DNA of 64,000 nucleotides, from assembly GCA_027923505.1 (NCBI GenBank), contig BROI01000028.1, forward strand, positions 248,001 through 312,000, given 5' to 3'. A program made the position numbers and the translations under genes. Of the stretch, positions 23,213-52,921 are shown in pieces. The number at the start of each line of letters is the position of its first letter. Positions within the stretch are counted from its first letter, which is position 1. The notes below the pieces were generated by a model that saw only the letters and a program-made list of their open reading frames with translations, searched no databases and was not told the DNA's origin. Source of the DNA: Mayamaea pseudoterrestris. Lineage: Eukaryota.

Positions 23213-23511
23213 GATGGCAGTGTTTGTAGGTGCTATGAATGAGGTGAGAAGATGGGTGCACGGCGAGTTGTTCGAATGCATCGAGCTGCGGCTGGAACCG
23301 TGTCGGAAGGTTTTAGTAAGCGGTAAGATGAATGAATGCTCATTAGCGTCTGACAATTGACTCGAGCAACGTGATCATTTACCGTTCACGTGCGCACCTG
23401 AGCACTTCATTATCGCACCACGACTTGTTATTGGATGGCGTCGTGACCGCTATCTCATCACACTGACTTGCTTCTTGAGCAACAGCAGTCTGCTCAAATA
23501 AACAATCAACC
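23213..23511. promoter_or_regulatory. Probable bidirectional promoter shared by RPL14 and RPL8
   Basis: The two ribosomal protein start codons diverge ~300 bp apart. Confidence 0.55.
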
Positions 23512-24379: not shown

Positions 24380-24923
24380 GCTTCATTATAGATTGGTTGA
24401 ATGGATTGTCAATTTACTATATCTACTAGTAGCGAGAATTTATAGTTTAATAAGTTTTTGGTAGCTTAGGGAGTGCAATACTACTTACTGCAGAGAGGGA
24501 GGAATAGAGTTCCAGACTCAACATAATCATCCTAGACTCCGTTACAGTACAGTACCGACTAATTGACATCGCTGCATAGCTCATCTTTTGCACATTAGCA
24601 GCAGCAGAAATTTCACGCTGCGATGTAATACAGTAATGCAACGTACTATATACCGGTACGTATCGATAGCTAAACGACCGAGGTTGAGTAACGCGGTAAG
24701 AAGTCGTGCTGCGACATGCGACAAAGATTCGTGCGTCCCGTTCATGCCGACCGATTAGTGCATCAAACTGTCGACAGGCAAGGAAAACCTGCGAACGTTA
24801 CATATACAACCATTTCGACACTCTTATATTCCAAATCAAGTGCTACCTGATCTTCTGACTTCATTTCACATTTGGAATTTCTTTTAAACGTCAAATTTGT
24901 CGCCAGCCAGTTATTTCATTACA

Positions 24924-26330: not shown

Positions 26331-26367
26331 TCTATATTGTTTAAATTAGCGTAAAATGCATTGTTTA

Positions 26368-27455
26368 GGATGCGCTACAAGATGGTGTGCCTGGCTGGTG
26401 TCTTTGTGGACTGCAATGTGATTGGTGACAAGTTGTCCCCAGCCTCAGCCTGCAGATGCCATGACATTCAACTGCCCATATAACACGCCATGTATACACC
26501 CAAATCACACCAGAATGCTGGCAACATCATTATTTATTCTGCGCTATATTATGGCATGCCAGGCTGGTGTCCTAGTAGACTGCAATGTGAATCGTGAGAA
26601 CTTCTCACCAGTCTCAGTCCACAGATGCCGTGACATTCAAACGCCCCTGCAGCAAGCCATGCATACACCCAAATCTCACCCGAATGGTGCCAACATCATC
26701 ATTTTTTGGACTGCGCTACAAAATGGTAATTTCGGCTGGTGTCTCAGGGGATGGCAATGTAATTGCTGACAACTTGTCACCAGTCTCAGCCCGCTGATGC
26801 CATGACATTCCAACACACCTACAGCAAGCTCTGTAGGTGCCCAAATTACACCAGAATGGTGCCAACATCATTATTGGGTCTGTGCTACAAGATGATAGGC
26901 TTGGATGGTGTCTCAGGGGATGGCAATGTATTTGGTGACAACTTGTCACCAGTCTCAACCCACAGGTGCCATGACATTCAAATGCCCCTACAGCAAGCTC
27001 TGTAGCTGCCCAAATGTGCCAACATCAATTTTAGGCTGCCCTACAAGATGGTAGGCTTGGATGGTGTCTCAGGGGATGGCAATGTATTTGGTGACAACTT
27101 TTCACCAATCTCAGCCCACAGATGCCATGACATTCAAATGCATCTACAGCAAGACCTGTAGGTGCCCAAATTACACCAAAATGGTGCCAACACCATTTGC
27201 TAGGCTGCGCTACAAGATGGTAGGCGTGGCTGGTGTCTCAGGGGATGGCAATGTATTTGGTGACAACTTGTCACCAATCTCAGCCCGCAGATGCCATGAC
27301 ATTCAAACACTCCTACAGCAAGCCCTGTAGGTGCCCAAATTACACCAGAATGGTGCCAACACTATTTTCTAGGCTGTGTTACAAGATGGTAGGCTTGGAT
27401 GGTGTCTCAGGAGATGGCAATGTATTTGGTGACAGCTTGTCACCAATCTCAGCCT
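26368..27455 (+). repeat. 169-bp satellite, left block (~6.5 monomers; most diverged at the outer edge)
   Basis: Repeated ..gcgctacaagatggtaggcttggctggtgtctcaggggatggcaatgtatttggtgacaacttgtcacca.. with ~169-bp period. Boundaries are approximate. Confidence 0.95.
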
Positions 27456-30400
27456 GCTTCAGTTAGCAGGTACTATGTGACTGCCTACCCTAGCAGTGGC
27501 AAACATCAGATCCCCACAATCTCTTTGTAAACTGGCTTGAAGCATGATCCAAGGTCACAAATGGATATTGTATAGTGCATTCACTTTGTGCATTTGCCTC
27601 CTGCATGTTGCCTGCTTCCAGATCCGCAGAAGTTGCTGGTATGTACTACCCAACTGCCGAACACCAACCTAGCAGTGGCAAACATGAAGTGCCCACACAC
27701 TCTATGCGTACAGCCACTGTGCATGATCCGAGTGCACAAGACATACCTCCTTGGTGAATTTGTTTTGCGCATCAGCCTCCTGCTTGCCTTTTGCCTTCAG
27801 GTCAGCATCTTCAGTTAGCAGGTACTATGTAACTGCCTACCCTAGCAGTGGCAAACATCAGATCCCCACAATCTCTATGTAAACTGGCTTGGGGCATGAT
27901 CCAAGGTCACAAATGGATATTGTATAGTGCATTCACTTTGTGCATTTGCCTCCTGCATGTTGCCTGCTTCCAGATCCGCAGAAGTTGCTGGTATGTACTA
28001 CCCAACTGCCGAACACCAACCTAGCAGTGGCAAACATGAAGTGCCCACACACTCTATGCGTACAGCCACTGTGCATGATCCGAGGGCACAAGACATACCT
28101 CCTTGGTGAATTTGTTTTGCGCATCAGCCTCCTGCTTGCCTTTTGCCTTCAGGTCAGCAGCTTCAGTTAGCAGGTACTATGTGACTGCCTACCCTAGCAG
28201 TGGCAAACATCAGATCCCCACAATCTCTTTGTAAACTGGCTTGGGGCATGATCCAAGGTCACAAATGGATATTGTATAGTGCATTCACTTTGTGCATTTG
28301 CCTCCTGCATGTTGCCTGCTTCCAGATCCGCAGAAGTTGCTGGTATGTACTACCCAACTGCCGAACACCAACCTAGCAGTGGCAAACATGAAGTGCCCAC
28401 ACACTCTATGCGTACAGCCACTGTGCATGATCCGAGGGCACAAGACATACCTTCTTGGTGAATTTGTTTTGCGCATCAGCCTCCTGCTTGCCTTTTGCCT
28501 TCAGGTCAGCAGCTTCAGTTAGCAGGCACTATGTGACTGCCTACCCTAGCAGTGGCAAACATCAGATCCACACAATCTCTTTATAAACTGGCTTGGGGCA
28601 TGATCCAAGGTCACAAATGGATATTGTATAGCGCATTCACTTTGTGCATTTGCCTCCTGCATGTTGCCTGCTTCCAGATCCGCAGAAGTTGCTGGTATGT
28701 ACTACCCAACTGCCGAACACCAACCTAGCAGTGGCAAACATGAAGTGCCCACACACTCTATGGGTACAGCCAATGTGCATGATCTGAGGGCACAAGACAT
28801 ACCTCCTTGGTGAATTTGTTTTGTGCATCAGCCTCCTGCTTGCCTTTTGCCTTCAGGTCAGCAGCTTCAGTTAGCAGGTACTATGTGACTGCCTACCCTA
28901 GCAGTGGCAAACATCAGATCCCCACAATCTCTTTGTAAACTGGCTTGGGGCATGATCCAAGGTCACAAATGGATATTGTATAGTGCATTCACTTTGTGCA
29001 TTTGCCTCCTGCATGTTGCCTGCTTCCAGATCCGCAGAAGTTGCTGGTATGTACTACCCAACTGCCAAACACTTTGTGCATCAGCCTCCTGCTTGCCTTT
29101 TGCCTTCAGGTCAGCAGCTTCAGTTAGCAGGTACTATGTGACTGCCTACCCTAGCAGTGGCAAACATCAGATCCCCACAATCTCTTTGTAAACTGGCTTG
29201 GGGCATGATCCAAGGTCACAAATGGATATTGTATAGTGCATTCACTTTGTGCATTTGCCTCCTGCATGTTGCCTGCTTCCAGATCCGCAGAAGTTGCTGG
29301 TATGTACTACCCAACTGCCAAACACCAACCTAGCAGTGGCAAACATGAAGTGCCCACACACTCTATGCGTACAGCCACTGTGCATGATCCGAGGGCACAA
29401 GACATACCTCCTTGGTGAATTTGTTTTGCGCATCAGCCTCCAGCGCCAACTAGCAGTGGCAAACATGAAGTGCCCACACTCTTTGCGTACAGCCACTGTG
29501 CATGATCCTTCTGCGTACAGCGAGGGCACAAGACATACCTCCTGTATTTGTCAGCCCCCTGCTTGCCTTTTGCCTTCAGGTCAGCAGCTTCAGTTAGCAG
29601 GTACTATGTGACTGCCTACCCTAGCAGTGGCAAACATCAGATCCCCACAATCTCTTTGTAAACTGGCTTGGGGCATGATCCAAGGTCACAAATGGATATT
29701 GTATAGTGCATTCACTTTGTGCATTTGCCTCCTGCATGTTGCCTGCTTCCAGATCCGCAGAAGTTGCTGGTATGTACTACCCAACTGCCGAACACCAACC
29801 TAGCAGTGGCAAACATGAAGTGCCCACACACTCTATGCGTACAGCCACTGTGCATGATCCGAGGGCACAAGACATACCTTCTTGGTGAATTTGTTTTGCG
29901 CATCAGCCTCCTGCTTGCCTTTTGCCTTCAGGTCAGCAGCTTCAGTTAGCAGGTACTATGTGACTGCCTACCCTAGCAGTGGCAAACATCAGATCCCCAC
30001 AATCTCTTTGTAAACTGGCTTGGGGCATGATCCAAGGTCACAAATGGATATTGTATAGCGCATTCACTTTGTGCATTTGCCTCCTGCATGTTGCCTGCTT
30101 CCAGATCCGCAGAAGTTGCTGGTATGTACTACCCAACTGCCGAACACCAACCTAGCAGTGGCAAACATGAAGTGCCCACACACTCTATGCGTACAGCCAC
30201 TGTGCATGATCCGAGGGCACAAGACATACCTCCTTGGTGAATTTGTTTTGCGCATCAGCCTCCTGCTTGCCTTTTGCCTTCAGGTCAGCAGCTTCAGTTA
30301 GCAGGTACTATGTGACTGCCTACCCTAGCAGTGGCAAACATCAGATCCCCACAATCTCTTTGTAAACTGGCTTGGGGCATGATCCAAGGTCACAAATGGA

Positions 30401-33400
30401 TATTGTATAGTGCATTCACTTTGTGCATTTGCCTCCTGCATGTTGCCTGCTTCCAGATCCGCAGAAGTTGCTGGTATGTACTACCCAACTGCCGAACACC
30501 AACCTAGCAGTGGCAAACATGAAGTGCCCACACACTCTATGCGTACAGCCACTGTGCATGATCCGAGGGCACAAGACATACCTCCTTGGTGAATTTGTTT
30601 TGCGCATCAGCCTCCTGCTTGCCTTTTGCCTTCAGGTCAGCAGCTTCAGTTAGCAGGTACTATGTGACTGCCTACCCTAGCAGTGGCAAACATCAGATCC
30701 CCACAATCTCTTTGTAAACTGGCTTGGGGCATGATCCAAGGTCACAAATGGATATTGTATAGTGCATTCACTTTGTGCATTTGCCTCCTGCATGTTGCCT
30801 GCTTCCAGATCCGCAGAAGTTGCTGGTATGTACTACCCAACTGCCGAACACCAACCTAGCAGTGGCAAACATGAAGTGCCCACACACTCTATGCGTACAG
30901 CCACTGTGCATGATCCGAGGGCACAAGACATACCTCCTTGGTGAATTTGTTTTGCGCATCAGCCTCCTGCTTGCCTTTTGCCTTCAGGTCAGCAGCTTCA
31001 GTTAGCAGGTACTATGTGACTGCCTACCCTAGCAGTGGCAAACATCAGATCCCCACAATCTCTTTGTAAACTGGCTTGGGGCATGATCCAAGGTCACAAA
31101 TGGATATTGTATAGTGCATTCACTTTGTGCATTTGCCTCCTGCATGTTGCCTGCTTCCAGATCCGCAGAAGTTGCTGGTATGTACTACCCAACTGCCGAA
31201 CACCAACCTAGCAGTGGCAAACATGAAGTGCCCACACACTCTATGCGTACAGCCACTGTGCATGATCCGAGGGCACAAGACATACCTCCTTGGTGAATTT
31301 GTTTTGCGCATCAGCCTCCTGCTTGCCTTTTGCCTTCAGGTCAGCAGCTTCAGTTAGCAGGTACTATGTGACTGCCTACCCTAGCAGTGGCAAACATCAG
31401 ATCCCCACAATCTCTTTGTAAACTGGCTTGGGGCATGATCCAAGGTCACAAATGGATATTGTATAGTGCATTCACTTTGTGCATTTGCCTCCTGCATGTT
31501 GCCTGCTTCCAGATCCGCAGAAGTTGCTGGTATGTACTACCCAACTGCCGAACACCAACCTAGCAGTGGCAAACATGAAGTGCCCACACACTCTATGCGT
31601 ACAGCCACTGTGCATGATCCGAGGGCACAAGACATACCTCCTTGGTGAATTTGTTTTGCGCATCAGCCTCCTGCTTGCCTTTTGCCTTCAGGTCAGCAGC
31701 TTCAGTTAGCAGGTACTATGTGACTGCCTACCCTAGCAGTGGCAAACATCAGATCCCCACAATCTCTTTGTAAACTGGCTTGGGGCATGATCCAAGGTCA
31801 CAAATGGATATTGTATAGTGCATTCACTTTGTGCATTTGCCTCCTGCATGTTGCCTGCTTCCAGATCCGCAGAAGTTGCTGGTATGTACTACCCAACTGC
31901 CGAACACCAACCTAGCAGTGGCAAACATGAAGTGCCCACACACTCTATGCGTACAGCCACTGTGCATGATCCGAGGGCACAAGACATACCTCCTTGGTGA
32001 ATTTGTTTTGCGCATCAGCCTCCTGCTTGCCTTTTGCCTTCAGGTCAGCAGCTTCAGTTAGCAGGTACTATGTGACTGCCTACCCTAGCAGTGGCAAACA
32101 TCAGATCCCCACAATCTCTTTGTAAACTGGCTTGGGGCATGATCCAAGGTCACAAATGGATATTGTATAGTGCATTCACTTTGTGCATTTGCCTCCTGCA
32201 TGTTGCCTGCTTCCAGATCCGCAGAAGTTGCTGGTATGTACTACCCAACTGCCGAACACCAACCTAGCAGTGGCAAACATGAAGTGCCCACACACTCTAT
32301 GCGTACAGCCACTGTGCATGATCCGAGGGCACAAGACATACCTCCTTGGTGAATTTGTTTTGCGCATCAGCCTCCTGCTTGCCTTTTGCCTTCAGGTCAG
32401 CAGCTTCAGTTAGCAGGTACTATGTGACTGCCTACCCTAGCAGTGGCAAACATCAGATCCCCACAATCTCTTTGTAAACTGGCTTGGGGCATGATCCAAG
32501 GTCACAAATGGATATTGTATAGTGCATTCACTTTGTGCATTTGCCTCCTGCATGTTGCCTGCTTCCAGATCCGCAGAAGTTGCTGGTATGTACTACCCAA
32601 CTGCCGAACACCAACCTAGCAGTGGCAAACATGAAGTGCCCACACACTCTATGCGTACAGCCACTGTGCATGATCCGAGGGCACAAGACATACCTCCTTG
32701 GTGAATTTGTTTTGCGCATCAGCCTCCTGCTTGCCTTTTGCCTTCAGGTCAGCAGCTTCAGTTAGCAGGTACTATGTGACTGCCTACCCTAGCAGTGGCA
32801 AACATCAGATCCCCACAATCTCTTTGTAAACTGGCTTGGGGCATGATCCAAGGTCACAAATGGATATTGTATAGTGCATTCACTTTGTGCATTTGCCTCC
32901 TGCATGTTGCCTGCTTCCAGATCCGCAGAAGTTGCTGGTATGTACTACCCAACTGCCGAACACCAACCTAGCAGTGGCAAACATGAAGTGCCCACACACT
33001 CTATGCGTACAGCCACTGTGCATGATCCGAGGGCACAAGACATACCTCCTTGGTGAATTTGTTTTGCGCATCAGCCTCCTGCTTGCCTTTTGCCTTCAGG
33101 TCAGCAGCTTCAGTTAGCAGGTACTATGTGACTGCCTACCCTAGCAGTGGCAAACATCAGATCCCCACAATCTCTTTGTAAACTGGCTTGGGGCATGATC
33201 CAAGGTCACAAATGGATATTGTATAGTGCATTCACTTTGTGCATTTGCCTCCTGCATGTTGCCTGCTTCCAGATCCGCAGAAGTTGCTGGTATGTACTAC
33301 CCAACTGCCGAACACCAACCTAGCAGTGGCAAACATGAAGTGCCCACACACTCTATGCGTACAGCCACTGTGCATGATCCGAGGGCACAAGACATACCTC

Positions 33401-36400
33401 CTTGGTGAATTTGTTTTGCGCATCAGCCTCCTGCTTGCCTTTTGCCTTCAGGTCAGCAGCTTCAGTTAGCAGGTACTATGTGACTGCCTACCCTAGCAGT
33501 GGCAAACATCAGATCCCCACAATCTCTTTGTAAACTGGCTTGGGGCATGATCCAAGGTCACAAATGGATATTGTATAGTGCATTCACTTTGTGCATTTGC
33601 CTCCTGCATGTTGCCTGCTTCCAGATCCGCAGAAGTTGCTGGTATGTACTACCCAACTGCCGAACACCAACCTAGCAGTGGCAAACATGAAGTGCCCACA
33701 CACTCTATGCGTACAGCCACTGTGCATGATCCGAGGGCACAAGACATACCTCCTTGGTGAATTTGTTTTGCGCATCAGCCTCCTGCTTGCCTTTTGCCTT
33801 CAGGTCAGCAGCTTCAGTTAGCAGGTACTATGTGACTGCCTACCCTAGCAGTGGCAAACATCAGATCCCCACAATCTCTTTGTAAACTGGCTTGGGGCAT
33901 GATCCAAGGTCACAAATGGATATTGTATAGTGCATTCACTTTGTGCATTTGCCTCCTGCATGTTGCCTGCTTCCAGATCCGCAGAAGTTGCTGGTATGTA
34001 CTACCCAACTGCCGAACACCAACCTAGCAGTGGCAAACATGAAGTGCCCACACACTCTATGCGTACAGCCACTGTGCATGATCCGAGGGCACAAGACATA
34101 CCTCCTTGGTGAATTTGTTTTGCGCATCAGCCTCCTGCTTGCCTTTTGCCTTCAGGTCAGCAGCTTCAGTTAGCAGGTACTATGTGACTGCCTACCCTAG
34201 CAGTGGCAAACATCAGATCCCCACAATCTCTTTGTAAACTGGCTTGGGGCATGATCCAAGGTCACAAATGGATATTGTATAGTGCATTCACTTTGTGCAT
34301 TTGCCTCCTGCATGTTGCCTGCTTCCAGATCCGCAGAAGTTGCTGGTATGTACTACCCAACTGCCGAACACCAACCTAGCAGTGGCAAACATGAAGTGCC
34401 CACACACTCTATGCGTACAGCCACTGTGCATGATCCGAGGGCACAAGACATACCTCCTTGGTGAATTTGTTTTGCGCATCAGCCTCCTGCTTGCCTTTTG
34501 CCTTCAGGTCAGCAGCTTCAGTTAGCAGGTACTATGTGACTGCCTACCCTAGCAGTGGCAAACATCAGATCCCCACAATCTCTTTGTAAACTGGCTTGGG
34601 GCATGATCCAAGGTCACAAATGGATATTGTATAGTGCATTCACTTTGTGCATTTGCCTCCTGCATGTTGCCTGCTTCCAGATCCGCAGAAGTTGCTGGTA
34701 TGTACTACCCAACTGCCGAACACCAACCTAGCAGTGGCAAACATGAAGTGCCCACACACTCTATGCGTACAGCCACTGTGCATGATCCGAGGGCACAAGA
34801 CATACCTCCTTGGTGAATTTGTTTTGCGCATCAGCCTCCTGCTTGCCTTTTGCCTTCAGGTCAGCAGCTTCAGTTAGCAGGTACTATGTGACTGCCTACC
34901 CTAGCAGTGGCAAACATCAGATCCCCACAATCTCTTTGTAAACTGGCTTGGGGCATGATCCAAGGTCACAAATGGATATTGTATAGTGCATTCACTTTGT
35001 GCATTTGCCTCCTGCATGTTGCCTGCTTCGCAGATCCGCAGAAGTGTGGTATGTACTACCCAACTGCCGAACACCAACCTAGCAGTGGCAAACATGAAGT
35101 GCCCACACACTCTATGCGTACAGCCACTGTGCATGATCCGAGGGCACAAGACATACCTCCTTGGTGAATTTGTTTTGCGCATCAGCCTCCTGCTTGCCTT
35201 TTGCCTTCAGGTCAGCAGCTTCAGTTAGCAGGTACTATGTGACTGCCTACCCTAGCAGTGGCAAACATCAGATCCCCACAATCTCTTTGTAAACTGGCTT
35301 GGGGCATGATCCAAGGTCACAAATGGATATTGTATAGTGCATTCACTTTGTGCATTTGCCTCCTGCATGTTGCCTGCTTCCAGATCCGCAGAAGTTGCTG
35401 GTATGTACTACCCAACTGCCGAACACCAACCTAGCAGTGGCAAACATGAAGTGCCCACACACTCTATGCGTACAGCCACTGTGCATGATCCGAGGGCACA
35501 AGACATACCTCCTTGGTGAATTTGTTTTGCGCATCAGCCTCCTGCTTGCCTTTTGCCTTCAGGTCAGCAGCTTCAGTTAGCAGGTACTATGTGACTGCCT
35601 ACCCTAGCAGTGGCAAACATCAGATCCCCACAATCTCTTTGTAAACTGGCTTGGGGCATGATCCAAGGTCACAAATGGATATTGTATAGTGCATTCACTT
35701 TGTGCATTTGCCTCCTGCATGTTGCCTGCTTCCAGATCCGCAGAAGTTGCTGGTATGTACTACCCAACTGCCGAACACCAACCTAGCAGTGGCAAACATG
35801 AAGTGCCCACACACTCTATGCGTACAGCCACTGTGCATGATCCGAGGGCACAAGACATACCTCCTTGGTGAATTTGTTTTGCGCATCAGCCTCCTGCTTG
35901 CCTTTTGCCTTCAGGTCAGCAGCTTCAGTTAGCAGGTACTATGTGACTGCCTACCCTAGCAGTGGCAAACATCAGATCCCCACAATCTCTTTGTAAACTG
36001 GCTTGGGGCATGATCCAAGGTCACAAATGGATATTGTATAGTGCATTCACTTTGTGCATTTGCCTCCTGCATGTTGCCTGCTTCCAGATCCGCAGAAGTT
36101 GCTGGTATGTACTACCCAACTGCCGAACACCAACCTAGCAGTGGCAAACATGAAGTGCCCACACACTCTATGCGTACAGCCACTGTGCATGATCCGAGGG
36201 CACAAGACATACCTCCTTGGTGAATTTGTTTTGCGCATCAGCCTCCTGCTTGCCTTTTGCCTTCAGGTCAGCAGCTTCAGTTAGCAGGTACTATGTGACT
36301 GCCTACCCTAGCAGTGGCAAACATCAGATCCCCACAATCTCTTTGTAAACTGGCTTGGGGCATGATCCAAGGTTACAAATGGATATTGTATAGTGCATTC

Positions 36401-37730: not shown

Positions 37731-40700
37731 CGCTACAAGATGGTAAACTGGCTGGTGTCTCAGGGGATGGCAATGTATTGTGGTGACATCACTTGTCACC
37801 AATTCCCTCAGCCCACAGATGCCATGACATTCAAACAGCGATACAGCAAGCCCTGTAGGTGCCCAGATTACATCAGAATGGTGCCACCACCATTTTCTAG
37901 GCTGGGCTATAAGATGGTAGGCTTGGCTGGTGTCTCCGGGGATGGCAATGTATTTGGTGACAACTTGTCACCAGTCTCAGCCCGCAGATGCCATGACATT
38001 CAAACGGCCCTACAGCAAGCCCTGTGGGTGCCCAGATTACATAAGAATGGTGCCAACATCATTAATCAGGCTGCGCTACAAGATGGTAGGCTTGGCTGGT
38101 GTCTCCGGGGATGGCAATGCCCGCAGATGCCCTGACATTCAAACGCCCCGACAGCATGCCCTGTTGGTGCCCAAATTACACCAGAATGGTGCCAACTCCA
38201 TTTTCTAGGCTGTGTTACAAGATGGTAGGCTTGGATGGTGTCTCAGGAGATGGCAATGTATTTGGTGACAACTTGTCACCAATCTCAGCCCGCAGATGCC
38301 ATGACATTCAAACGGCCCTACAGCAAGCCCTGTAGGTGCCCAGATTACATCAGAATGGTGCCAACACCATTTTCTAGGCTGGGCTACAAGATGGTAGGCT
38401 TGGCTGGTGTCTCAGGGGATGGCAATGTATTTGGTGACAACTTGTCACCAATCTCAGCCCGCAGATGCCATGACATTCAAACGGCCCTACAGCAAGCCCT
38501 GTAGGTGCCCAAATTACACCAGAATGGTGCCACCATTATTATTCAGGCAGCGCTACAAGATGATAAGCTTGACTAGTGTCTCAGGGGATGGCAAGGTATT
38601 TGGTGACAACTTGTCACCAATCTCAGCCCGCAGATGCCATGACATTCAAACAGCCCTACATCAGGCCCTGTAGGTGCCCAAATTACACCAGAATGGTGCC
38701 AACATCATTATTCCAGCTGCGCTACAAGATGGTAGGCTCAGCTGGTGTCCTAGGGGATGGCAATGTATTTGGTGACAACTTGTCACCAATCTCAGCCCAC
38801 AGATGCTGTGACATTCAAACAGCCCTACATCAGGCCCTGTAGGTGCCCAAATTACACCAGAATGGTGCCAACATCATTTTCTAGGCTGCACTACAAGATG
38901 GTAGGCTTGGCTGGTGTCTCGGGGGATGGCAATGTATTTGGTGACAACTTGTCACCAATCTCCGCCCGCAGATGCAATGACATTCAAACGCATCTACAGC
39001 AAGCCCTGTAGGTGCCCAAATTACACCAGAATGGTGCCAACACCATTTTCTAGGCTGCGCTACAAGATTTTAGGCTCGTCTGGTGTCTCAGGGGATGGCA
39101 ATGTATTTGGTGACAACTTGTCACCAATCTCAGCCCGCAGAGGCCGTGACATTAAAACAGCCTACATCAGGCCCTGTAGGTGCCTAAATTACACCAGAAT
39201 GGTGCCAACATCATTATTCCGGCTGCGCTACAAGATGGTAGGCTTGGCTGGTGTCTCAGGGGATGGCAATGTATTTGGTGACAACTTGTCACCAATCTCA
39301 GCCCGCAGATGCCATGACATTCAAACGCCCCTACAGCAAGCCCGGTAGGTGCCCAAATTACACCAGAATGGTGCCAACACCATTTTCTAGGCTGCGCTAC
39401 AAGATGGTAGGCTTGGCTGGTGTCTCAGGGGATGGCAATGTATTTGGTGACAACTTGTCACCAATCTCAGCCCGCAGATGCCATGACATTCAAAACGCCC
39501 CTTCAGCAAGCCCTGTAGGTGCCCAAATTACACCAGAATGGTGCCAACACCATTTTCTAGGCTGCGCTACAAGATGGTAGGCTCAGCTGGTGTCCGAGTG
39601 GATGGCAATGTATTTGGTGACAACTTGTCACCAATCTCAGCCCGCAGATGCCATGACATTCAAACGCCCCTACAGCAAGCCCTGTAGGTGCCCAAATTAC
39701 ACCAGAATGGTGCCAACACCATTTTCTAGGCTGCGCTACAAGATGGTAGGCTCAGCTGGTGTCTCAGGGGATGGCAATGTATTTGGTGACAACTTGTCAC
39801 CAGTCTCAGCCCGCAGATGCCATGACATTCAAACGCCCCTACAGCAAGCCCTGTAGGTGCCCAAATTACACCAGAATGGTGCCAACACCATTTTCTAGGC
39901 TGCGCTACAAGATGGTAGGCTCGGCTGGTGTCTCAGGGGATGGCAATGTATTTGGTGACAACTTGTCACCAGTCTCAGCCGCAGATGCCGTGACATTCAA
40001 ACGCCCCTACAGCAAGCCCTGTAGGTGCCCAAATTACACCAGAATGGTGCCAACATCATTTTCTAGGCTGCGCTACAAGATGGTAGGCTTGGCTGGTGTC
40101 TCAGGGGATGGCAATGTATTTGGTGACAACTTGTCACCAGTCTCAGCCCGCAGATGTCATGACATTCAAAAGCCCCTACAGCAAGCCCTGTAGGTATCCA
40201 AACTACACCAGAATGGTGCCAACGCCATTTTCTTGGCTGCGCTACAAGTGTTAGGCTTGGCTGGTGTCTCAGGGGATGGCAATGTATTTGGTGACAACTT
40301 GTCACCAATCTCAGCCCGCAGATGCCGTGACATTCAAACGCCCCTACAGCAAGCCCTGTAGGTGCCCAAATTACACCAGAATGGTGCCAACATCATTTTC
40401 AAGGCTGCGCTACAAGATGGTAGGCTTGGCTGGTGTCTCAGGGGATGGCAAGGTATTTGGTGACAACTTGTCACCAATCTCAGCCCGCAGATGCCATGAC
40501 ATTCAAACGCCCCTACAGCAAGCCCTGTAGGTGCCCAAATTACACCAGAATGGTGCCAACACCATTTTCTAGGCTGCGCTACAAGATGGTAGGCTTGGCT
40601 GGTGTCTCAGGGGATGGCAATGTATTTGGTGACAACCTGTTTTCAATCTCAGCCCGCACATGCCATGACATTCAAACGGCCCTACAGCAAGCCCTGTAGG

Positions 40701-43700
40701 TGCCCAAATTACACCAGAATGGTGCCAACACCATTTTCTAGGCTGCGCTACAAGATGGTAGGCTCGGCTGGTGTCTCAGGGGATGGCAATGTATTTGGTG
40801 ACAACTTGTCACCAATCTCAGCCCGCAGATGCCATGACATTCAAACGCCCCTACAGCAAGCCCTGTAGGTGCCCAAATTACACCAGAATGGTGCCACCAC
40901 CATTTTCTAGGCTGCGCTACAAGATGGTAGGCTTGGCTGGTGTCTCAGGGGATGGCAATGTATTTGGTGACAACTTGTCACCAATCTCAGCCCGCAGATG
41001 CCATGACATTCAAATGCCCTAACAGCAAGCCCTGTAGGTGCCCAAATTACACCAGAATGGTGCCAACACCATTTTCTAGGCTGCGCTACAAGATGGTAGG
41101 CTCGGCTGGTGTCTCAGGGGATGGCAATGTATTTGGTGACAACTTGTCACCAATCTCAGCCCGCAGATGCCATGACATTCAAACGCCCCTACAGCAAGCC
41201 CTGTAGGTGCCCAAATTACACCAGAATGGTGCCAACATCATTTTCTGGCTGCGCTACAAGATGGTAGGCTTGGCTGGTGTCTCAGGGGATGGCAATGTAT
41301 TTGGTGACAACTTGTCACCAGTCTCAGCCCGCAGATGCCATGACATTCAAACGCCCCTACAGCAAGCCCTGTAGGTGCCCAAATTACACCAGAATGGTGC
41401 CAACACCATTTTCTAGGCTGCGCTACAAGATGGTAGGCTTGGCTGGTGTCTCAGGGGATGGCAATGTATTTGGTGACAACTTGTCACCAGTCTCAGCCCT
41501 GCTGCCTTACACTTTGCAAACGCCCCTACAGCAAGCCCTGTTGTGGGCCCAAATCAGCAGAGACGTTCTTGCCAACACCATTTTCTGGCTGCGCTACAAG
41601 TATGGTACGCTCGGCTGGTGTCTCAGGGATGGTGCGAAGTATTTGCGTGACAACTTGTCACCAATCTCAGCCCGCAGATGCCATGACAATCAAACGCACC
41701 TACAGCAAGCTCCGTAGCTGCCCAAATTACACCAGAATGGTGCCAACATCATTAATCAGGCTGTGCTACAAGATGGTAGGCTTGGCTGGTGTCTCAGGGG
41801 ATGGCAATGTATTTGGTGACAACTTGTCACCAATCTCCGCCCGCAGATGCCATGACATTCAAACGCATCTACAGCAAGCCCTGTAGGTGCCCAAATTACA
41901 CCAGAATGGTGCCAACACCATTTTCTAGGCTGCGCTACAAGATGGTAGGCTTGGCTGGTGTCTCAGGGGATGGCAATGTATTTGGTGACAACTTGTCACC
42001 AATCTCCGCCCGCAGATGCCATGACGTTCAAACGCACCTACAGCAAGCCCAGTAGGTGCCCAAATTACAACAGAATGGTGCCAAAACAATTTCTAGGCTG
42101 GGCTACAAGATGGTAGGCTTGGCTGGTGTCTCAGGGGATGGCAATGGTATTTGGTGACAACTTGTCACCAATCTCAGCCTGCAGATGCCATGACATGCAA
42201 ACGCCTCTACAGCAAGCTCTGTAGGTGCCCAAATTACACCAGAATGGTGCCAACACCATTTTCTCGGCTGCGCTACAAGATGGTAGGCTCGGCTGGTGTC
42301 TCAGGGGATGGCAATGTATTTGGTGACAACTTGTCACCAATCTCAGCCCGCACATGCCATGACATTCAAAACGCCCCTACAGCAAGCCCTGTAGGTGCCC
42401 AAATTACACCAGAATGGTGCCAACACCATTTTCTAGGCTGCGCTACAAGATGGTAGGCTCGGCTGGTGTCTCAGGGGATGGCAATGTATTTGGTGACAAC
42501 TTGTCACCAATCTCAGCCCGCAGATGCCGGGACATTCAAAAAACACCTACAGCAAGCCCTGTAGGTGCCCAAATTACACCAGAATGGTGCCAACACCATT
42601 TTCTAGGCTGCGCTACAAGATGGTAGGCTCAGCTGGTGTCTCAGGGGATGGCAATGTATTTGGTGACAACTTGTCACCAGTCTCAGCCCGCAGATGCCAT
42701 GACATTCAAAACGCCCCCACAGCAAGCCCTGTAGGTGCCCAAATTACACCAGAATGGTGCCAACATCATTATTCAGGCTGCGCTACAAGATGGTAGGCTC
42801 GGCTGGTGTCTCAGGGGATGGCAATGTATTTGGTGACAACTTGTCACCAATCTCAGCCCGCAGATGCCATGACATTCAAAACGCCCCTTCAGCAAGCCCT
42901 GTAGGTGCCCAAATTACACCAGAATGGTGCCAACACAATTTTCTAGGCTGCGCTACAAGATGGTAGGCTCAGCTGGTGTATCAGGGGATGGCAATGTATT
43001 TGGTGACAACTTGTCACCAATCTCAGCCTGCAGATGCCATGACATTCAAACGCCTCTACAGCAAGCCCTGTAGGTGCCTGAATTACACCAGAATGGTGCC
43101 AACATCATTTTTTAGGCTGCGCTACAAAATGGTATGCCTGGCTAGTGTCTCAGGGGATGGCTATGCGATTGGTGACAACTTGTCAACAGTCTCAGCCAGC
43201 TGATGCCTTGACATTGAAACGCCCCTACAGCAAGCCATGTATACACCCAAAAAACACCAGAATCTTGCCAACATCATTATATGGGCTGCGCTACAAGATG
43301 GTAAGCTTGGCTGGTGTCTCAGGGGATGGCAATGCAATTGGTGACAAGTTGTCAACAGTCTCAGCCAGCTGATGCCTTGACATTGAAACACACCTACAGC
43401 AAGCCATGTATACACCCAAATTACACCAGAACTGTTCCAACATCATCATTTGGGCTGCGTTACAAGATGTTATGCCTGGCTGGTGTCTCAGGGGATGGAA
43501 ATGCGATTGTTGACAACTTGTCACCAGTCTCAGCCCACAGATGCCATGACATTCAAACACACCTACAGCAAGTTCTGTAGGAGCCCATGTCCAAATTACA
43601 CCAGAATGGTGCCAATGTCATTTTTCAGGCCGCGCTACAAGATGGTAAGCTTGGCTGGTGTATCAGGGGATGGCAATGTAATTGGTGACAAATTGTCACC

Positions 43701-46700
43701 AGTCTCAGTCTGCAGATTTGCCTTGACATGCCCGCAGATGCCCTGACATTCAAACGCCCCGACAGCATGCCCTGTTGGTGCCCAAATTACACCAGAATGG
43801 TGCCAACTCCATTTTCTAGGCTGTGTTACAAGATGGTAGGCTTGGATGGTGTCTCAGGAGATGGCAATGTATTTGGTGACAACTTGTCACCAATCTCAGC
43901 CCGCAGATGCCATGACATTCAAACGGCCCTACAGCAAGCCCTGTAGGTGCCCAGATTACATCAGAATGGTGCCAACACCATTTTCTAGGCTGGGCTACAA
44001 GATGGTAGGCTTGGCTGGTGTCTCAGGGGATGGCAATGTATTTGGTGACAACTTGTCACCAATCTCAGCCCGCAGATGCCATGACATTCAAACGGCCCTA
44101 CAGCAAGCCCTGTAGGTGCCCAAATTACACCAGAATGGTGCCACCATTATTATTCAGGCAGCGCTACAAGATGATAAGCTTGACTAGTGTCTCAGGGGAT
44201 GGCAAGGTATTTGGTGACAACTTGTCACCAATCTCAGCCCGCAGATGCCATGACATTCAAACAGCCCTACATCAGGCCCTGTAGGTGCCCAAATTACACC
44301 AGAATGGTGCCAACATCATTATTCCAGCTGCGCTACAAGATGGTAGGCTCAGCTGGTGTCCTAGGGGATGGCAATGTATTTGGTGACAACTTGTCACCAA
44401 TCTCAGCCCACAGATGCTGTGACATTCAAACAGCCCTACATCAGGCCCTGTAGGTGCCCAAATTACACCAGAATGGTGCCAACATCATTTTCTAGGCTGC
44501 ACTACAAGATGGTAGGCTTGGCTGGTGTCTCGGGGGATGGCAATGTATTTGGTGACAACTTGTCACCAATCTCCGCCCGCAGATGCAATGACATTCAAAC
44601 GCATCTACAGCAAGCCCTGTAGGTGCCCAAATTACACCAGAATGGTGCCAACACCATTTTCTAGGCTGCGCTACAAGATTTTAGGCTCGTCTGGTGTCTC
44701 AGGGGATGGCAATGTATTTGGTGACAACTTGTCACCAATCTCAGCCCGCAGAGGCCGTGACATTAAAACAGCCTACATCAGGCCCTGTAGGTGCCTAAAT
44801 TACACCAGAATGGTGCCAACATCATTATTCCGGCTGCGCTACAAGATGGTAGGCTTGGCTGGTGTCTCAGGGGATGGCAATGTATTTGGTGACAACTTGT
44901 CACCAATCTCAGCCCGCAGATGCCATGACATTCAAACGCCCCTACAGCAAGCCCGGTAGGTGCCCAAATTACACCAGAATGGTGCCAACACCATTTTCTA
45001 GGCTGCGCTACAAGATGGTAGGCTTGGCTGGTGTCTCAGGGGATGGCAATGTATTTGGTGACAACTTGTCACCAATCTCAGCCCGCAGATGCCATGACAT
45101 TCAAAACGCCCCTTCAGCAAGCCCTGTAGGTGCCCAAATTACACCAGAATGGTGCCAACACCATTTTCTAGGCTGCGCTACAAGATGGTAGGCTCAGCTG
45201 GTGTCCGAGTGGATGGCAATGTATTTGGTGACAACTTGTCACCAATCTCAGCCCGCAGATGCCATGACATTCAAACGCCCCTACAGCAAGCCCTGTAGGT
45301 GCCCAAATTACACCAGAATGGTGCCAACACCATTTTCTAGGCTGCGCTACAAGATGGTAGGCTCAGCTGGTGTCTCAGGGGATGGCAATGTATTTGGTGA
45401 CAACTTGTCACCAGTCTCAGCCCGCAGATGCCATGACATTCAAACGCCCCTACAGCAAGCCCTGTAGGTGCCCAAATTACACCAGAATGGTGCCAACACC
45501 ATTTTCTAGGCTGCGCTACAAGATGGTAGGCTCGGCTGGTGTCTCAGGGGATGGCAATGTATTTGGTGACAACTTGTCACCAGTCTCAGCCGCAGATGCC
45601 GTGACATTCAAACGCCCCTACAGCAAGCCCTGTAGGTGCCCAAATTACACCAGAATGGTGCCAACATCATTTTCTAGGCTGCGCTACAAGATGGTAGGCT
45701 TGGCTGGTGTCTCAGGGGATGGCAATGTATTTGGTGACAACTTGTCACCAGTCTCAGCCCGCAGATGTCATGACATTCAAAAGCCCCTACAGCAAGCCCT
45801 GTAGGTATCCAAACTACACCAGAATGGTGCCAACGCCATTTTCTTGGCTGCGCTACAAGTGTTAGGCTTGGCTGGTGTCTCAGGGGATGGCAATGTATTT
45901 GGTGACAACTTGTCACCAATCTCAGCCCGCAGATGCCGTGACATTCAAACGCCCCTACAGCAAGCCCTGTAGGTGCCCAAATTACACCAGAATGGTGCCA
46001 ACATCATTTTCAAGGCTGCGCTACAAGATGGTAGGCTTGGCTGGTGTCTCAGGGGATGGCAAGGTATTTGGTGACAACTTGTCACCAATCTCAGCCCGCA
46101 GATGCCATGACATTCAAACGCCCCTACAGCAAGCCCTGTAGGTGCCCAAATTACACCAGAATGGTGCCAACACCATTTTCTAGGCTGCGCTACAAGATGG
46201 TAGGCTTGGCTGGTGTCTCAGGGGATGGCAATGTATTTGGTGACAACCTGTTTTCAATCTCAGCCCGCACATGCCATGACATTCAAACGGCCCTACAGCA
46301 AGCCCTGTAGGTGCCCAAATTACACCAGAATGGTGCCAACACCATTTTCTAGGCTGCGCTACAAGATGGTAGGCTCGGCTGGTGTCTCAGGGGATGGCAA
46401 TGTATTTGGTGACAACTTGTCACCAATCTCAGCCCGCAGATGCCATGACATTCAAACGCCCCTACAGCAAGCCCTGTAGGTGCCCAAATTACACCAGAAT
46501 GGTGCCACCACCATTTTCTAGGCTGCGCTACAAGATGGTAGGCTTGGCTGGTGTCTCAGGGGATGGCAATGTATTTGGTGACAACTTGTCACCAATCTCA
46601 GCCCGCAGATGCCATGACATTCAAATGCCCTAACAGCAAGCCCTGTAGGTGCCCAAATTACACCAGAATGGTGCCAACACCATTTTCTAGGCTGCGCTAC

Positions 46701-49340
46701 AAGATGGTAGGCTCGGCTGGTGTCTCAGGGGATGGCAATGTATTTGGTGACAACTTGTCACCAATCTCAGCCCGCAGATGCCATGACATTCAAACGCCCC
46801 TACAGCAAGCCCTGTAGGTGCCCAAATTACACCAGAATGGTGCCAACATCATTTTCTGGCTGCGCTACAAGATGGTAGGCTTGGCTGGTGTCTCAGGGGA
46901 TGGCAATGTATTTGGTGACAACTTGTCACCAGTCTCAGCCCGCAGATGCCATGACATTCAAACGCCCCTACAGCAAGCCCTGTAGGTGCCCAAATTACAC
47001 CAGAATGGTGCCAACACCATTTTCTAGGCTGCGCTACAAGATGGTAGGCTTGGCTGGTGTCTCAGGGGATGGCAATGTATTTGGTGACAACTTGTCACCA
47101 GTCTCAGCCCTGCTGCCTTACACTTTGCAAACGCCCCTACAGCAAGCCCTGTTGTGGGCCCAAATCAGCAGAGACGTTCTTGCCAACACCATTTTCTGGC
47201 TGCGCTACAAGTATGGTACGCTCGGCTGGTGTCTCAGGGATGGTGCGAAGTATTTGCGTGACAACTTGTCACCAATCTCAGCCCGCAGATGCCATGACAA
47301 TCAAACGCACCTACAGCAAGCTCCGTAGCTGCCCAAATTACACCAGAATGGTGCCAACATCATTAATCAGGCTGTGCTACAAGATGGTAGGCTTGGCTGG
47401 TGTCTCAGGGGATGGCAATGTATTTGGTGACAACTTGTCACCAATCTCCGCCCGCAGATGCCATGACATTCAAACGCATCTACAGCAAGCCCTGTAGGTG
47501 CCCAAATTACACCAGAATGGTGCCAACACCATTTTCTAGGCTGCGCTACAAGATGGTAGGCTTGGCTGGTGTCTCAGGGGATGGCAATGTATTTGGTGAC
47601 AACTTGTCACCAATCTCCGCCCGCAGATGCCATGACGTTCAAACGCACCTACAGCAAGCCCAGTAGGTGCCCAAATTACAACAGAATGGTGCCAAAACAA
47701 TTTCTAGGCTGGGCTACAAGATGGTAGGCTTGGCTGGTGTCTCAGGGGATGGCAATGGTATTTGGTGACAACTTGTCACCAATCTCAGCCTGCAGATGCC
47801 ATGACATGCAAACGCCTCTACAGCAAGCTCTGTAGGTGCCCAAATTACACCAGAATGGTGCCAACACCATTTTCTCGGCTGCGCTACAAGATGGTAGGCT
47901 CGGCTGGTGTCTCAGGGGATGGCAATGTATTTGGTGACAACTTGTCACCAATCTCAGCCCGCACATGCCATGACATTCAAAACGCCCCTACAGCAAGCCC
48001 TGTAGGTGCCCAAATTACACCAGAATGGTGCCAACACCATTTTCTAGGCTGCGCTACAAGATGGTAGGCTCGGCTGGTGTCTCAGGGGATGGCAATGTAT
48101 TTGGTGACAACTTGTCACCAATCTCAGCCCGCAGATGCCGGGACATTCAAAAAACACCTACAGCAAGCCCTGTAGGTGCCCAAATTACACCAGAATGGTG
48201 CCAACACCATTTTCTAGGCTGCGCTACAAGATGGTAGGCTCAGCTGGTGTCTCAGGGGATGGCAATGTATTTGGTGACAACTTGTCACCAGTCTCAGCCC
48301 GCAGATGCCATGACATTCAAAACGCCCCCACAGCAAGCCCTGTAGGTGCCCAAATTACACCAGAATGGTGCCAACATCATTATTCAGGCTGCGCTACAAG
48401 ATGGTAGGCTCGGCTGGTGTCTCAGGGGATGGCAATGTATTTGGTGACAACTTGTCACCAATCTCAGCCCGCAGATGCCATGACATTCAAAACGCCCCTT
48501 CAGCAAGCCCTGTAGGTGCCCAAATTACACCAGAATGGTGCCAACACAATTTTCTAGGCTGCGCTACAAGATGGTAGGCTCAGCTGGTGTATCAGGGGAT
48601 GGCAATGTATTTGGTGACAACTTGTCACCAATCTCAGCCTGCAGATGCCATGACATTCAAACGCCTCTACAGCAAGCCCTGTAGGTGCCTGAATTACACC
48701 AGAATGGTGCCAACATCATTTTTTAGGCTGCGCTACAAAATGGTATGCCTGGCTAGTGTCTCAGGGGATGGCTATGCGATTGGTGACAACTTGTCAACAG
48801 TCTCAGCCAGCTGATGCCTTGACATTGAAACGCCCCTACAGCAAGCCATGTATACACCCAAAAAACACCAGAATCTTGCCAACATCATTATATGGGCTGC
48901 GCTACAAGATGGTAAGCTTGGCTGGTGTCTCAGGGGATGGCAATGCAATTGGTGACAAGTTGTCAACAGTCTCAGCCAGCTGATGCCTTGACATTGAAAC
49001 ACACCTACAGCAAGCCATGTATACACCCAAATTACACCAGAACTGTTCCAACATCATCATTTGGGCTGCGTTACAAGATGTTATGCCTGGCTGGTGTCTC
49101 AGGGGATGGAAATGCGATTGTTGACAACTTGTCACCAGTCTCAGCCCACAGATGCCATGACATTCAAACACACCTACAGCAAGTTCTGTAGGAGCCCATG
49201 TCCAAATTACACCAGAATGGTGCCAATGTCATTTTTCAGGCCGCGCTACAAGATGGTAAGCTTGGCTGGTGTATCAGGGGATGGCAATGTAATTGGTGAC
49301 AAATTGTCACCAGTCTCAGTCTGCAGATTTGCCTTGACAT
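37731..49340 (+). repeat. 169-bp satellite, right block (~68 monomers as assembled, including a 5,611-bp exact tandem duplication)
   Basis: 169-bp period (e.g. gctgcgctacaag at 39561, 39730, 39899). The ORF track repeats with an exact 5,611 offset (38235/43846 ... 43450/49061). Confidence 0.97.
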
Positions 49341-52691: not shown

Positions 52692-52921
52692 GATGCTTTG
52701 GTGGCAGTGCGGAAATGTAACATGGCGAAATCGTTGGTTGTCGCGGCGAAGCGTCGAGAACCGGTGCGAGCAAAGTTGCCTCTCACTTGAATGAGCTATG
52801 TTCCGCAAACTTCTGTACCGAAAGAAGCTCATATCACTATCATATGCAGCGCAAGCTTACAATTCATAATCTATAATGATATATATTTTATTCTAAACAC
52901 TCGTATACATCTATGTCCTTC

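What the first reader, a model, noticed from the sequence alone, without database searches (positions are those of the whole stretch)
26368..49340. Nested two-family satellite island of nucleosome-sized units: candidate satellite-type centromere in a diatom-like genome
Seen: a ~23-kb gene-free block inside otherwise tightly packed genes, arranged as [169-bp array] - [352-bp array, almost all units identical] - [169-bp array]. All basic periods (169, 173, 179 bp) are about one nucleosome repeat. The 169-mer is ~51% GC by hand count. Known: animal and plant centromeric satellites have such lengths (alpha satellite 171 bp, Arabidopsis 178 bp). The centromeres described for Phaeodactylum tricornutum are instead short, low-GC and non-repetitive. 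Inference: this may be a different, satellite-based centromere type for this lineage, with the homogeneous 352-bp core as the active domain.
Basis: partly seen in the sequence, partly recalled or inferred. Interest (0 to 1): 0.85.

Follow-up and report, generated by a model that had tools for sequence, protein, structure and literature searches.

The report
Abundant satellite DNA island in diatom
A 23-kb gene-free block in a pennate diatom genome is built from two unrelated tandem repeats that look very abundant genome-wide and chemically silenced; it could mark a centromere, but nothing here tests that.

Summary
Window 26367-49340 is [169-bp array, 6.5 units] - [352-bp array, 29 units of a 173+179 dimer] - [169-bp array, 68 units], all on one strand, with no coding or RNA-family signal. 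The host is a raphid pennate diatom.

New evidence:
- Both families look hyper-abundant. In Logan contigs of two runs from two studies, summed word depth on the 169-bp bins is 0.5-4 million against about 100 on the flank, and 88,000-502,000 against about 30. This island is therefore one locus of a major satellite.
- CpG observed/expected is 0.22-0.33 across the island against 0.98-1.23 in every flanking bin. That is a methylation-decay signature of heterochromatin.
- The fine structure may be assembly-shaped. 16 of 29 352-bp units are identical. The right array contains an exact 5,611-bp duplication (0 mismatches) with out-of-register joints, ending exactly at the array end.

The centromere reading stays untested: no whole genome is held, and there are no CENH3 data. 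The island does not resemble the low-GC diatom centromeres in print. I put the centromere reading at about 0.3.

The parts
26367..27457 (+). Left 169-bp satellite array: 6 whole units and one 87-bp partial. Identity to a core unit rises from 78-80% at the outer edge to 96% next to the 352-bp array.
27456..37730 (+). 352-bp satellite array, 29 units. Each unit is a dimer of 173- and 179-bp halves about 65% alike. It is unrelated in sequence to the 169-mer.
30060..36373 (+). Homogeneous centre of the 352-bp array. Perfect period 352 runs over 30060-35029 and 35047-36373. 16 of the 29 units are exact copies.
37731..49340 (+). Right 169-bp satellite array, 68 units and a 103-bp partial. In-register identity between units at lags 1 to 11 is about 0.90, with no favoured lag (no short higher-order period). 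The last four units are 84-89% identical to the core unit.
38117..43727 (+). First copy of an exact 5,611-bp block (about 33 units). Its left joint is out of register, giving a 138-bp unit at 38068-38205.
43728..49338 (+). Second copy of the block, with 0 mismatches to the first. The joint between the copies makes a 190-bp unit (43627-43816). The identity ends at 49340, the last base of the array.
45055..45075 (.). Example of the perfect 10+1+10 palindrome TTGGTGACAA-C-TTGTCACCAA carried by the 169-bp unit. The unit also holds two smaller dyads.
24924..26330 (+). Left flanking gene with PRA-CH and PRA-PH domains (histidine biosynthesis). Its stop codon lies 36 bp before the first satellite base.
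49547..50359 (+). Right flanking gene of the cytidine/deoxycytidylate deaminase family. Its start codon lies 206 bp after the last satellite base.

Best explanation
This is one locus of the two dominant satellite-DNA families of a raphid pennate diatom: non-coding tandem arrays packaged as CpG-methylated heterochromatin. SHOWN: a 169-bp family and an unrelated 352-bp dimeric family lie head to tail on one strand in a single intergenic gap between housekeeping genes. Both look present in the genome at thousands of single-copy equivalents. Both are about four-fold depleted in CpG, while all flanking DNA is not. INFERRED: the arrays grew by tandem amplification (unequal exchange, replication slippage, gene conversion). 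The 352-bp family expanded most recently inside an older 169-bp array, because the centre is homogeneous, the outer edges are diverged, and both 169/352 joints are out of register with short shared letters. Long-term cytosine methylation of the repeats produced the CpG-to-TpG/CpA decay. The assembled copy numbers are probably not the true ones. Whether the kinetochore assembles here is open; I rate it at about 0.3 (see rivals).
For: Array anatomy. Non-coding: 0 Rfam matches at gathering score over the whole window and 0 at E<=1 over 36200-39800. 0 tRNAs. No frame longer than 181 aa. Of 6 array ORFs scanned against Pfam at E<=0.1, 0 had a match above a family's cut-off; two had faint matches far below it. 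Abundance (Logan contigs only): in X1, 56,948 of 555,133 contigs lay on 24501-29400. Summed word depth was 546,624-4,026,092 on the seven 169-bp bins against 76-206 on the eleven flank bins. In X2, from another study, 11,667 of 182,933 contigs lay there, with 87,534-502,212 against 30-55. On the 352-bp bins the depth was 3,424-430,274 (X1) and 22-30,324 (X2). Contigs cross from the flank gene into the first roughly 30 bases of the array in both runs (record 2, 679 letters with 1 difference; record 14, 862 letters with 9 differences). The left boundary therefore exists in reads of two studies. Methylation signature: CpG o/e is 0.20 (169 left), 0.23 (352) and 0.30 (169 right) against 1.07 and 1.12 in the flanks, with TpG+CpA o/e 1.65-1.79 against 1.17. 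All eleven 2-kb bins lying wholly inside the island are 0.22-0.33, and all 19 bins lying wholly outside are 0.98-1.23. Flank DNA outside ORFs is 1.10. Per unit, the 169-mer has 3 CpG against 11.2 expected (P=0.0004). The 352-mer has 5 against 21.4 (0 of 5,000 shuffles reached so few). Its two halves have 1 against 9.5 and 4 against 11.7. Within the 169 family, transitions at CpG run at 7.9% (C>T) and 12.7% (G>A), against 4.0% and 2.4% elsewhere (42 units, second exact copy left out).
Against: The tool states that summed word depth of contigs is not a copy number. 26,958 of the 56,948 X1 contigs fit two places of the stretch, so absolute copy numbers are only orders of magnitude. The number of distinct contigs is inflated by sequencing errors on a very deep repeat, so I do not use it as a measure of diversity. 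CpG depletion is an indirect signature, and each family is in effect one amplified sequence. The case rests on three independent units (169, 352a, 352b) all being depleted, plus the excess of CpG transitions. No methylation data were seen. The order of events (352 younger than 169) is inferred from homogeneity, which an assembler or polisher can also create.
Confidence: 0.8

Rival explanations
1. Satellite-type regional centromere. The island, probably much longer in the real chromosome, is where CENH3 nucleosomes and the kinetochore sit. The homogeneous 352-bp array would be the active core and the 169-bp arrays the pericentromere. This adds a function to the best explanation rather than excluding it.
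For: The 169-bp family looks present at thousands of single-copy equivalents in two runs of two studies. From my own recall, not from any call, the most abundant nucleosome-sized tandem repeat is the centromeric one in most plants and animals studied (Melters et al. 2013). The locus is interstitial, with at least 26 kb of genes on the left and 14 kb on the right, so it is not a chromosome end. Its layering is centromere-like: an identical centre (16 of 29 units), 169-bp units 95-100% identical to the core unit inside, and 78-89% at both outer edges. The 169-mer carries a perfect 21-bp dyad; a perfect 10+1+10 palindrome is expected about 1.6e-4 times in 169 random bases (my arithmetic). It shows heterochromatin-type CpG decay. 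The window holds no low-GC spot of the P. tricornutum type that could be an alternative centromere: the lowest 500 bp is 40% GC and at most one 100-bp box of 32% GC or less falls in any 3 kb.
Against: None of the defining features was testable. The diatom centromeres found in the held literature are short, low-GC and non-repetitive: P. tricornutum by ChIP-seq and episome tests (10.1101/096016, passages read), and F. solaris predicted at 36-42% GC (10.1101/2021.11.10.468027, passages read). The island is 50% GC, like the rest of the window. As assembled it is only 23 kb and abuts genes at 36 and 206 bp, a tiny share of the family. If that size is real, the bulk of the satellite, and perhaps the centromere, lies elsewhere. 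High abundance equally fits many arrays per chromosome. No 10-bp WW periodicity exceeds shuffles.
Confidence: 0.3
2. The satellites are real, but the fine structure of this island is partly an assembly product. The array would be collapsed, with far fewer units than in the cell. Units would be homogenised by consensus polishing. The 5,611-bp block would have been traversed twice by the assembler or left as an unmerged contig overlap. This concerns structure, not function, and can hold together with either reading above.
For: 38117-43727 and 43728-49338 differ at 0 of 5,611 positions, while neighbouring 169-bp units differ by about 10%. The identity spans 11,224 bases, which is 2.000 copies plus 2 shared letters. 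It stops exactly at the array end, 49340. The block start is joined out of register in BOTH copies, to a truncated unit at 38116 (138-bp unit) and to the terminal partial unit at 43727 (190-bp unit). A simple biological tandem duplication would leave the first copy in its native, in-register context. 4,970 bases have perfect period 352. Read-derived depth suggests hundreds to thousands of 352-bp unit equivalents against 29 assembled.
Against: Very young arrays can be truly identical. Microhomology joints (the 2 letters AT) are also what replication-based duplication leaves. The left boundary of the island is bridged by contigs in two independent runs.
Confidence: 0.35
3. Mis-join: the left and right flanks belong to different loci or chromosomes, each ending in 169-bp satellite, and were joined through the shared repeat.
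For: The family is abundant enough for an assembler to connect unrelated array edges. Three internal joints are out of register.
Against: All units on both sides have the same orientation. Left units nearest the 352-bp array find their best matches (94-97%) among right-array units. No direct evidence of a break was seen.
Confidence: 0.08
4. A tandemly repeated functional gene cluster (small RNA genes, or a protein with repeats) or the internal repeats of a mobile element.
For: None beyond the tandem structure and the dyads in the 169-mer.
Against: 0 Rfam matches, even at E<=1. 0 tRNAs. Unit lengths 169 and 352 are not multiples of 3, and no frame exceeds 181 aa. No Pfam family above cut-off in 6 of 6 array ORFs. 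DNA folding is not better than shuffles (z -1.73 and 0.06). No terminal repeats or transposase frames at the edges.
Confidence: 0.03

Closest known systems
Centromeric satellites of animals and plants (human alpha satellite 171 bp, Arabidopsis CEN180/178 bp; names and lengths recalled)
   Same: Nucleosome-sized unit (169; 173+179). Head-to-tail arrays on one strand. A dimeric higher-order unit. Homogeneous centre with diverged edges. Looks very abundant genome-wide. CpG-decay signature. Short dyad symmetry in the unit.
   Different: No CENH3, per-chromosome or cytological evidence. 50% GC rather than AT-rich. Only 23 kb as assembled, directly abutting genes. No multi-copy higher-order repeat in the 169-bp array: no favoured lag from 1 to 11, and the 33-unit block has exactly 2.0 copies.
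Phaeodactylum tricornutum centromeres (Diner et al., preprint 10.1101/096016, passages read) and predicted Fistulifera solaris centromeres (10.1101/2021.11.10.468027, passages read)
   Same: Same lineage (pennate diatoms). Intergenic position in a gene-dense chromosome.
   Different: Those are short, low-GC, non-repetitive stretches: 500 bp of low-GC DNA suffices for episome maintenance, and the F. solaris predictions are 36-42% GC and 1.4-2 kb. Here the lowest 500 bp inside the island is 46.6% GC, and the DNA is purely tandem repeat.
PpSat1/PpSat2 satellites of the oomycete Phytophthora parasitica (PMC7290008; abstract and outline read)
   Same: Two abundant, mutually unrelated satellite families in a stramenopile genome, differing in length, organisation and dynamics, with function unknown.
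   Different: A different lineage, and sequence relatedness was not tested. I did not read their unit lengths or locations, so no closer comparison is made.
Layered-expansion model of primate centromeres (recalled, no call)
   Same: A young homogeneous array in the middle splits an older array into two more diverged flanks of the same orientation.
   Different: Here the inner and outer layers are unrelated families, and the pattern may be partly created by the assembly.

Membership tests
Satellite DNA | Long head-to-tail tandem arrays of a unit far larger than a microsatellite | tested here: met
   169 bp x 6.5 and x 68; 352 bp x 29; all hits on the + strand
Satellite DNA | Non-coding | tested here: met
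   Longest stop-to-stop frame is 181 aa. 0 Rfam matches, 0 tRNAs. No Pfam family above cut-off in 6 of 6 array ORFs
Satellite DNA | High copy number in the genome, beyond one locus | tested here: met
   Summed word depth is 0.5-4 million against about 100 on the flank (X1), and 88,000-502,000 against about 30 (X2). These are orders of magnitude only, from contigs, not raw reads
Centromeric satellite / regional centromere | Occupied by CENH3 (CENP-A) nucleosomes | not testable with these tools
   No ChIP data. Literature searches found such data for no diatom other than P. tricornutum
Centromeric satellite / regional centromere | One such locus per chromosome | not testable with these tools
   No whole genome held. 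No look-alike stretches found in other windows of the scan
Centromeric satellite / regional centromere | Homogeneous (often higher-order) core flanked by diverged monomers | tested here: inconclusive
   The pattern is present, but the homogeneity and the exact 5,611-bp duplicate may come from the assembly
Centromeric satellite / regional centromere | Intrinsic nucleosome phasing signal (about 10-bp WW periodicity); supportive, not defining | tested here: not met
   Peak power is 0.46 (169) and 0.31 (352). 59% and 86% of 1,000 shuffles reach as much
P. tricornutum-type diatom centromere | At least 500 bp of low-GC (about 32% or less in 100-bp boxes), non-repetitive DNA | tested here: not met
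   Island 500-bp GC is 46.6-53%. The window minimum is 40%. At most one low-GC 100-bp box per 3 kb; criterion
Higher-order repeat (HOR) array | Several tandem copies of a multi-monomer block, in register | tested here: not met
   For the 169-bp family, there is no favoured lag from 1 to 11, and the 33-unit block has exactly 2.0 copies with out-of-register joints. The 352-bp dimer does meet it (29 copies of a 2-monomer unit)

The most novel reading that the evidence does not exclude
Some raphid pennate diatoms have satellite-based regional centromeres. In this species the megabase-scale 169-bp family would form methylated pericentromeric heterochromatin on the chromosomes. The young, homogeneous 352-bp dimer array nested in it would be the CENH3 core. 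That centromere architecture is unlike the short, low-GC, non-repetitive centromeres of Phaeodactylum, so centromere type would have switched within diatoms.
Probability: 0.27. Interest if true: 0.8.

Novelty: new member of a known kind. Interest (0 to 1): 0.5.

Why it matters
In the held literature, diatom centromeres are known from one species by experiment, with two more by prediction. All are short, low-GC and unique, and they are the basis of diatom episome and artificial-chromosome design. Six full-text searches found no report of a satellite-type centromere in a diatom, nor a paper characterising diatom satellite DNA. A diatom whose genome carries very abundant nucleosome-sized, CpG-depleted satellite would show that classical satellite heterochromatin exists in this lineage. 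It would also give a concrete pair of probes (the 169- and 352-bp units) for CENH3 ChIP, FISH and methylation mapping, which would settle whether centromere architecture varies within diatoms. If the arrays turn out not to be centromeric, the result is an ordinary, though previously undescribed, satellite family. The locus would still serve as a caution about how assemblies render such arrays.

Tried and rejected
- Whole-genome search for other islands: no genome is held for this window.
- Earlier notes of the scan: nothing for this genome, for either unit by sequence, or for the words diatom/satellite/centromere. The 8 findings shown concern bacterial, plasmid or primate repeats and do not bear on this.
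- Metagenome contigs with a 22-base core motif: 2 loci. Both match only over the 22-23 bases of the motif and carry no satellite, so they are chance hits.
- Viral contigs with a 30-base 169-unit motif and a 33-base 352-unit motif: 0 and 0. Prokaryote genome contigs with a 24-base motif: 0.
- RNA evidence: no RNA holder listed. This says nothing about expression.
- Runs X6 and X7 (other organisms, same study as X1): 359 of 9,369,044 and 531 of 459,145 contigs lay on the satellite bins, at about a thousandth of X1's summed depth, and nothing lay on the flank bins. This could mean related species share the satellites. It fits library cross-talk from the very deep X1 satellite equally well. I draw no conclusion on conservation.
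That joint, the 352/169 joint and the right boundary therefore remain unchecked in reads.
- Similarity between the two families: local score 9-11 against 11.3 +/- 2 for shuffles, so unrelated.
- Nucleosome-positioning periodicity: none above shuffles.
- Single-strand DNA folding of whole units: z -1.73 and 0.06, not distinctive.
- Rfam at E<=1 and Pfam on array ORFs: nothing usable.
- The 2026 centromere atlas preprint (10.64898/2026.09.17.752431) was searched for diatom and stramenopile terms: 0 occurrences.
- Supplements of the bioRxiv preprints (the centromere tables of Diner et al. and of the F. solaris paper) were not consulted and may hold tandem-repeat details.
Full report
OBSERVATION. 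The island is real and sits at the stated place. Tandem Repeats Finder reports a 169-bp array at 26359-27454, a 352-bp array at 27456-37731 (29.2 copies, 94% matches; also seen as period 173 at 62%), and 169-bp arrays from 37731 to 49328. Nothing comparable lies elsewhere in the 64 kb. BLAST of one unit of each family against the window gives 76 and 64 hits, all on the + strand and all inside 26367-49340. The 169-mer is 51.5% GC and the 352-mer 49.4%. The island as a whole is 50.0% GC against 49.5% outside.

ANATOMY, 169-bp ARRAYS. The left array has six units and an 87-bp partial. Identity to a core unit rises from 78-80% at the outer edge to 96% beside the 352-bp array. The right array has 68 units and a 103-bp partial. 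Most are 95-100% identical to the core unit, and the last four are 84-89%. Among 42 non-redundant units, in-register identity at lags 1 to 11 is about 0.90 with no favoured lag, so there is no short higher-order period. The unit carries a perfect 10+1+10 palindrome and two smaller dyads.

ANATOMY, 352-bp ARRAY. The array has 29 units, each a dimer of 173- and 179-bp halves about 65% alike. 16 units are exact copies, with perfect periodicity over 30060-35029 and 35047-36373. The edge units are 95.5-99.7% identical, and there are truncated units around 28813-29550. The two families share no similarity above shuffles. Both 169/352 joints are out of register: the left array stops at unit position 87 and the right array restarts at position 7.

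NOT A GENE. There are no Rfam matches at gathering score for the window, or at E<=1 over a stretch covering both families. There are no tRNAs. No stop-to-stop frame exceeds 181 aa. No Pfam family scores above its cut-off in six array ORFs. Whole-unit DNA folds are not better than shuffles.

HOST AND CONTEXT. The flanks are dense with ordinary eukaryotic genes, including an aminotransferase, a GDSL lipase, a GYF-domain protein, UTP25, a potassium channel, Snf7 and MCM2. The MCM2 protein is 73-77% identical to named raphid pennate diatoms (Amphora coffeaeformis 77%, Seminavis robusta 75%, Nitzschia sp. 74%, Cylindrotheca fusiformis 73%). Its best hit overall is an unnamed sequence at 84%. The satellite begins 36 bp after the stop codon of a histidine-biosynthesis gene (24924-26330) and ends 206 bp before the start codon of a deaminase-family gene (49547-50359).

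NEW EVIDENCE 1: THE FAMILIES LOOK HYPER-ABUNDANT. Ten public runs hold part of 22000-30000, and all are kept only as Logan contigs. I laid four of them on 24501-29400.
- X1: 56,948 of 555,133 contigs lay there. Summed word depth is 76-206 on the eleven flank bins, 546,624-4,026,092 on the seven 169-bp bins, and 3,424-430,274 on the 352-bp bins.
- X2, from another study: 11,667 of 182,933 contigs lay there. The depths are 30-55, 87,534-502,212 and 22-30,324.

The tool warns that summed contig depth is not a copy number, and almost half of the contigs fit two places. But the stretch holds only about seven 169-bp units, so multiple laying cannot account for a gap of three to four orders of magnitude. 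Sequencing errors redistribute depth among contigs without adding to it. I therefore read both families as present at hundreds to tens of thousands of single-copy equivalents, which for the 169-bp family would amount to about a megabase or more. The 75+29 units assembled here are then a small part of them. In both runs a contig runs from the flank gene about 30 bases into the array (records 2 and 14). The left boundary is thus real in two independent data sets.

NEW EVIDENCE 2: A METHYLATION-DECAY SIGNATURE. CpG observed/expected is 0.20, 0.23 and 0.30 in the three arrays against 1.07 and 1.12 in the flanks, with a matching excess of TpG+CpA. In 2-kb bins, the eleven bins wholly inside the island are 0.22-0.33 and the 19 wholly outside are 0.98-1.23. 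Flank DNA outside ORFs is 1.10, so this is not a coding effect. The three independent units each have far fewer CpG than shuffles: 3 against 11.2, 1 against 9.5 and 4 against 11.7, all with P<=0.0014. Within the 169 family, transitions at CpG are two to five times more frequent than at other C/G sites. The simplest reading is long-standing cytosine methylation of the repeats, meaning constitutive heterochromatin beside unmethylated genes. That diatoms methylate repeats is my recollection and comes from no call.

NEW EVIDENCE 3: THE FINE STRUCTURE MAY BE ASSEMBLY-SHAPED. 38117-43727 and 43728-49338 are identical at all 5,611 positions, although neighbouring units differ by about 10%. The identity covers exactly 2.000 copies plus two shared letters and ends on the last base of the array. 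The block start is joined out of register in both copies, giving a 138-bp unit at 38068-38205 and a 190-bp unit at 43627-43816. A simple tandem duplication would leave the first copy in its native context. Two hard edges look more like a graph edge traversed twice, an unmerged overlap, or a complex replication-based event. Add the 4,970 bases of perfect 352-bp periodicity and the depth excess. The assembled length of 23 kb should then not be trusted in either direction. I could not test the joints in reads.

IS IT A CENTROMERE? None of the defining features could be tested. In favour:
- high apparent abundance of a nucleosome-sized unit;
- interstitial position between genes;
- a homogeneous centre with diverged edges;
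- dyad symmetry in the unit;
- the heterochromatin signature;
- no low-GC stretch of the Phaeodactylum type anywhere in the window (lowest 500 bp is 40% GC).

Against, or neutral:
- The diatom centromeres found in the held literature are short, low-GC and non-repetitive. P. tricornutum was characterised by ChIP-seq and episome assays, with similar low-GC regions predicted in T. pseudonana (10.1101/096016, passages). F. solaris predictions are 36-42% GC with no highly repeated elements (10.1101/2021.11.10.468027, passages).
- The island is not AT-rich.
- The abundance equally fits many arrays per chromosome.
- The 'active homogeneous core' may be an artefact.
- No 10-bp WW periodicity exceeds shuffles, so the nucleosome argument is length only.

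I put the centromere reading at about 0.3.

WHAT IS IN PRINT. Six full-text searches found no satellite-type centromere in a diatom and no paper characterising diatom satellite DNA. A 2026 atlas of centromere architectures does not mention diatoms or stramenopiles. The nearest stramenopile parallel found is the pair of satellite families of Phytophthora parasitica (PMC7290008, abstract). The library lacks most subscription-journal papers, so absence here is not proof.

VERDICT. The best-supported account is a locus of the genome's major satellite DNA: two unrelated families, the younger nested in the older, silenced as methylated heterochromatin, and imperfectly rendered by the assembly. As satellite DNA it is a new member of a known kind. 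It would be a notable new variant only if CENH3 proves to sit on it.

Noticed in passing
window 38117-49340: Exact 5,611-bp tandem duplicate (0 mismatches) inside a satellite whose neighbouring units differ by about 10%. The copy number is exactly 2.000, both copies start at an out-of-register joint, and the second ends on the last base of the array. It may be an assembler artefact or a very recent complex duplication.
   Followed up: partly
window 24501-29400, runs X6 and X7: Runs labelled as other organisms, from the same study as X1, hold both satellites at roughly a thousandth of X1's summed depth. That includes a 382-letter contig of the 352-bp unit with only 2 differences. This is either shared satellites in related species or cross-talk between libraries.
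   Followed up: no
window 24924-26330: The histidine-biosynthesis ORF (PRA-CH and PRA-PH domains at residues 265-428) has about 260 N-terminal residues without any Pfam match, and its 3' end lies 36 bp from the satellite. Its terminator or 3' UTR would have to lie in the repeat.
   Followed up: no
window 1152-1286, 9185-9293, 12548-12656, 19892-20048, 24364-24496, 24797-24901, 26258-26388, 52796-52956, 58749-58863: The only stretches of 32% GC or less are nine short (about 100-160 bp) patches, mostly at gene boundaries. None approaches the 500 bp of low-GC DNA that acts as a centromere in Phaeodactylum.
   Followed up: yes
window 28813-29550: An irregular patch in the 352-bp array with truncated units of 260, 345, 27 and 98 bp. 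It marks old rearrangements near the left edge, in contrast to the perfect centre.
   Followed up: no
window 24501-26400, X1 and X2 contigs: The flank gene shows several single-base differences and small indels between the window and contigs of both runs, and some bins carry two contigs. This is consistent with a heterozygous diploid or with strain differences.
   Followed up: no
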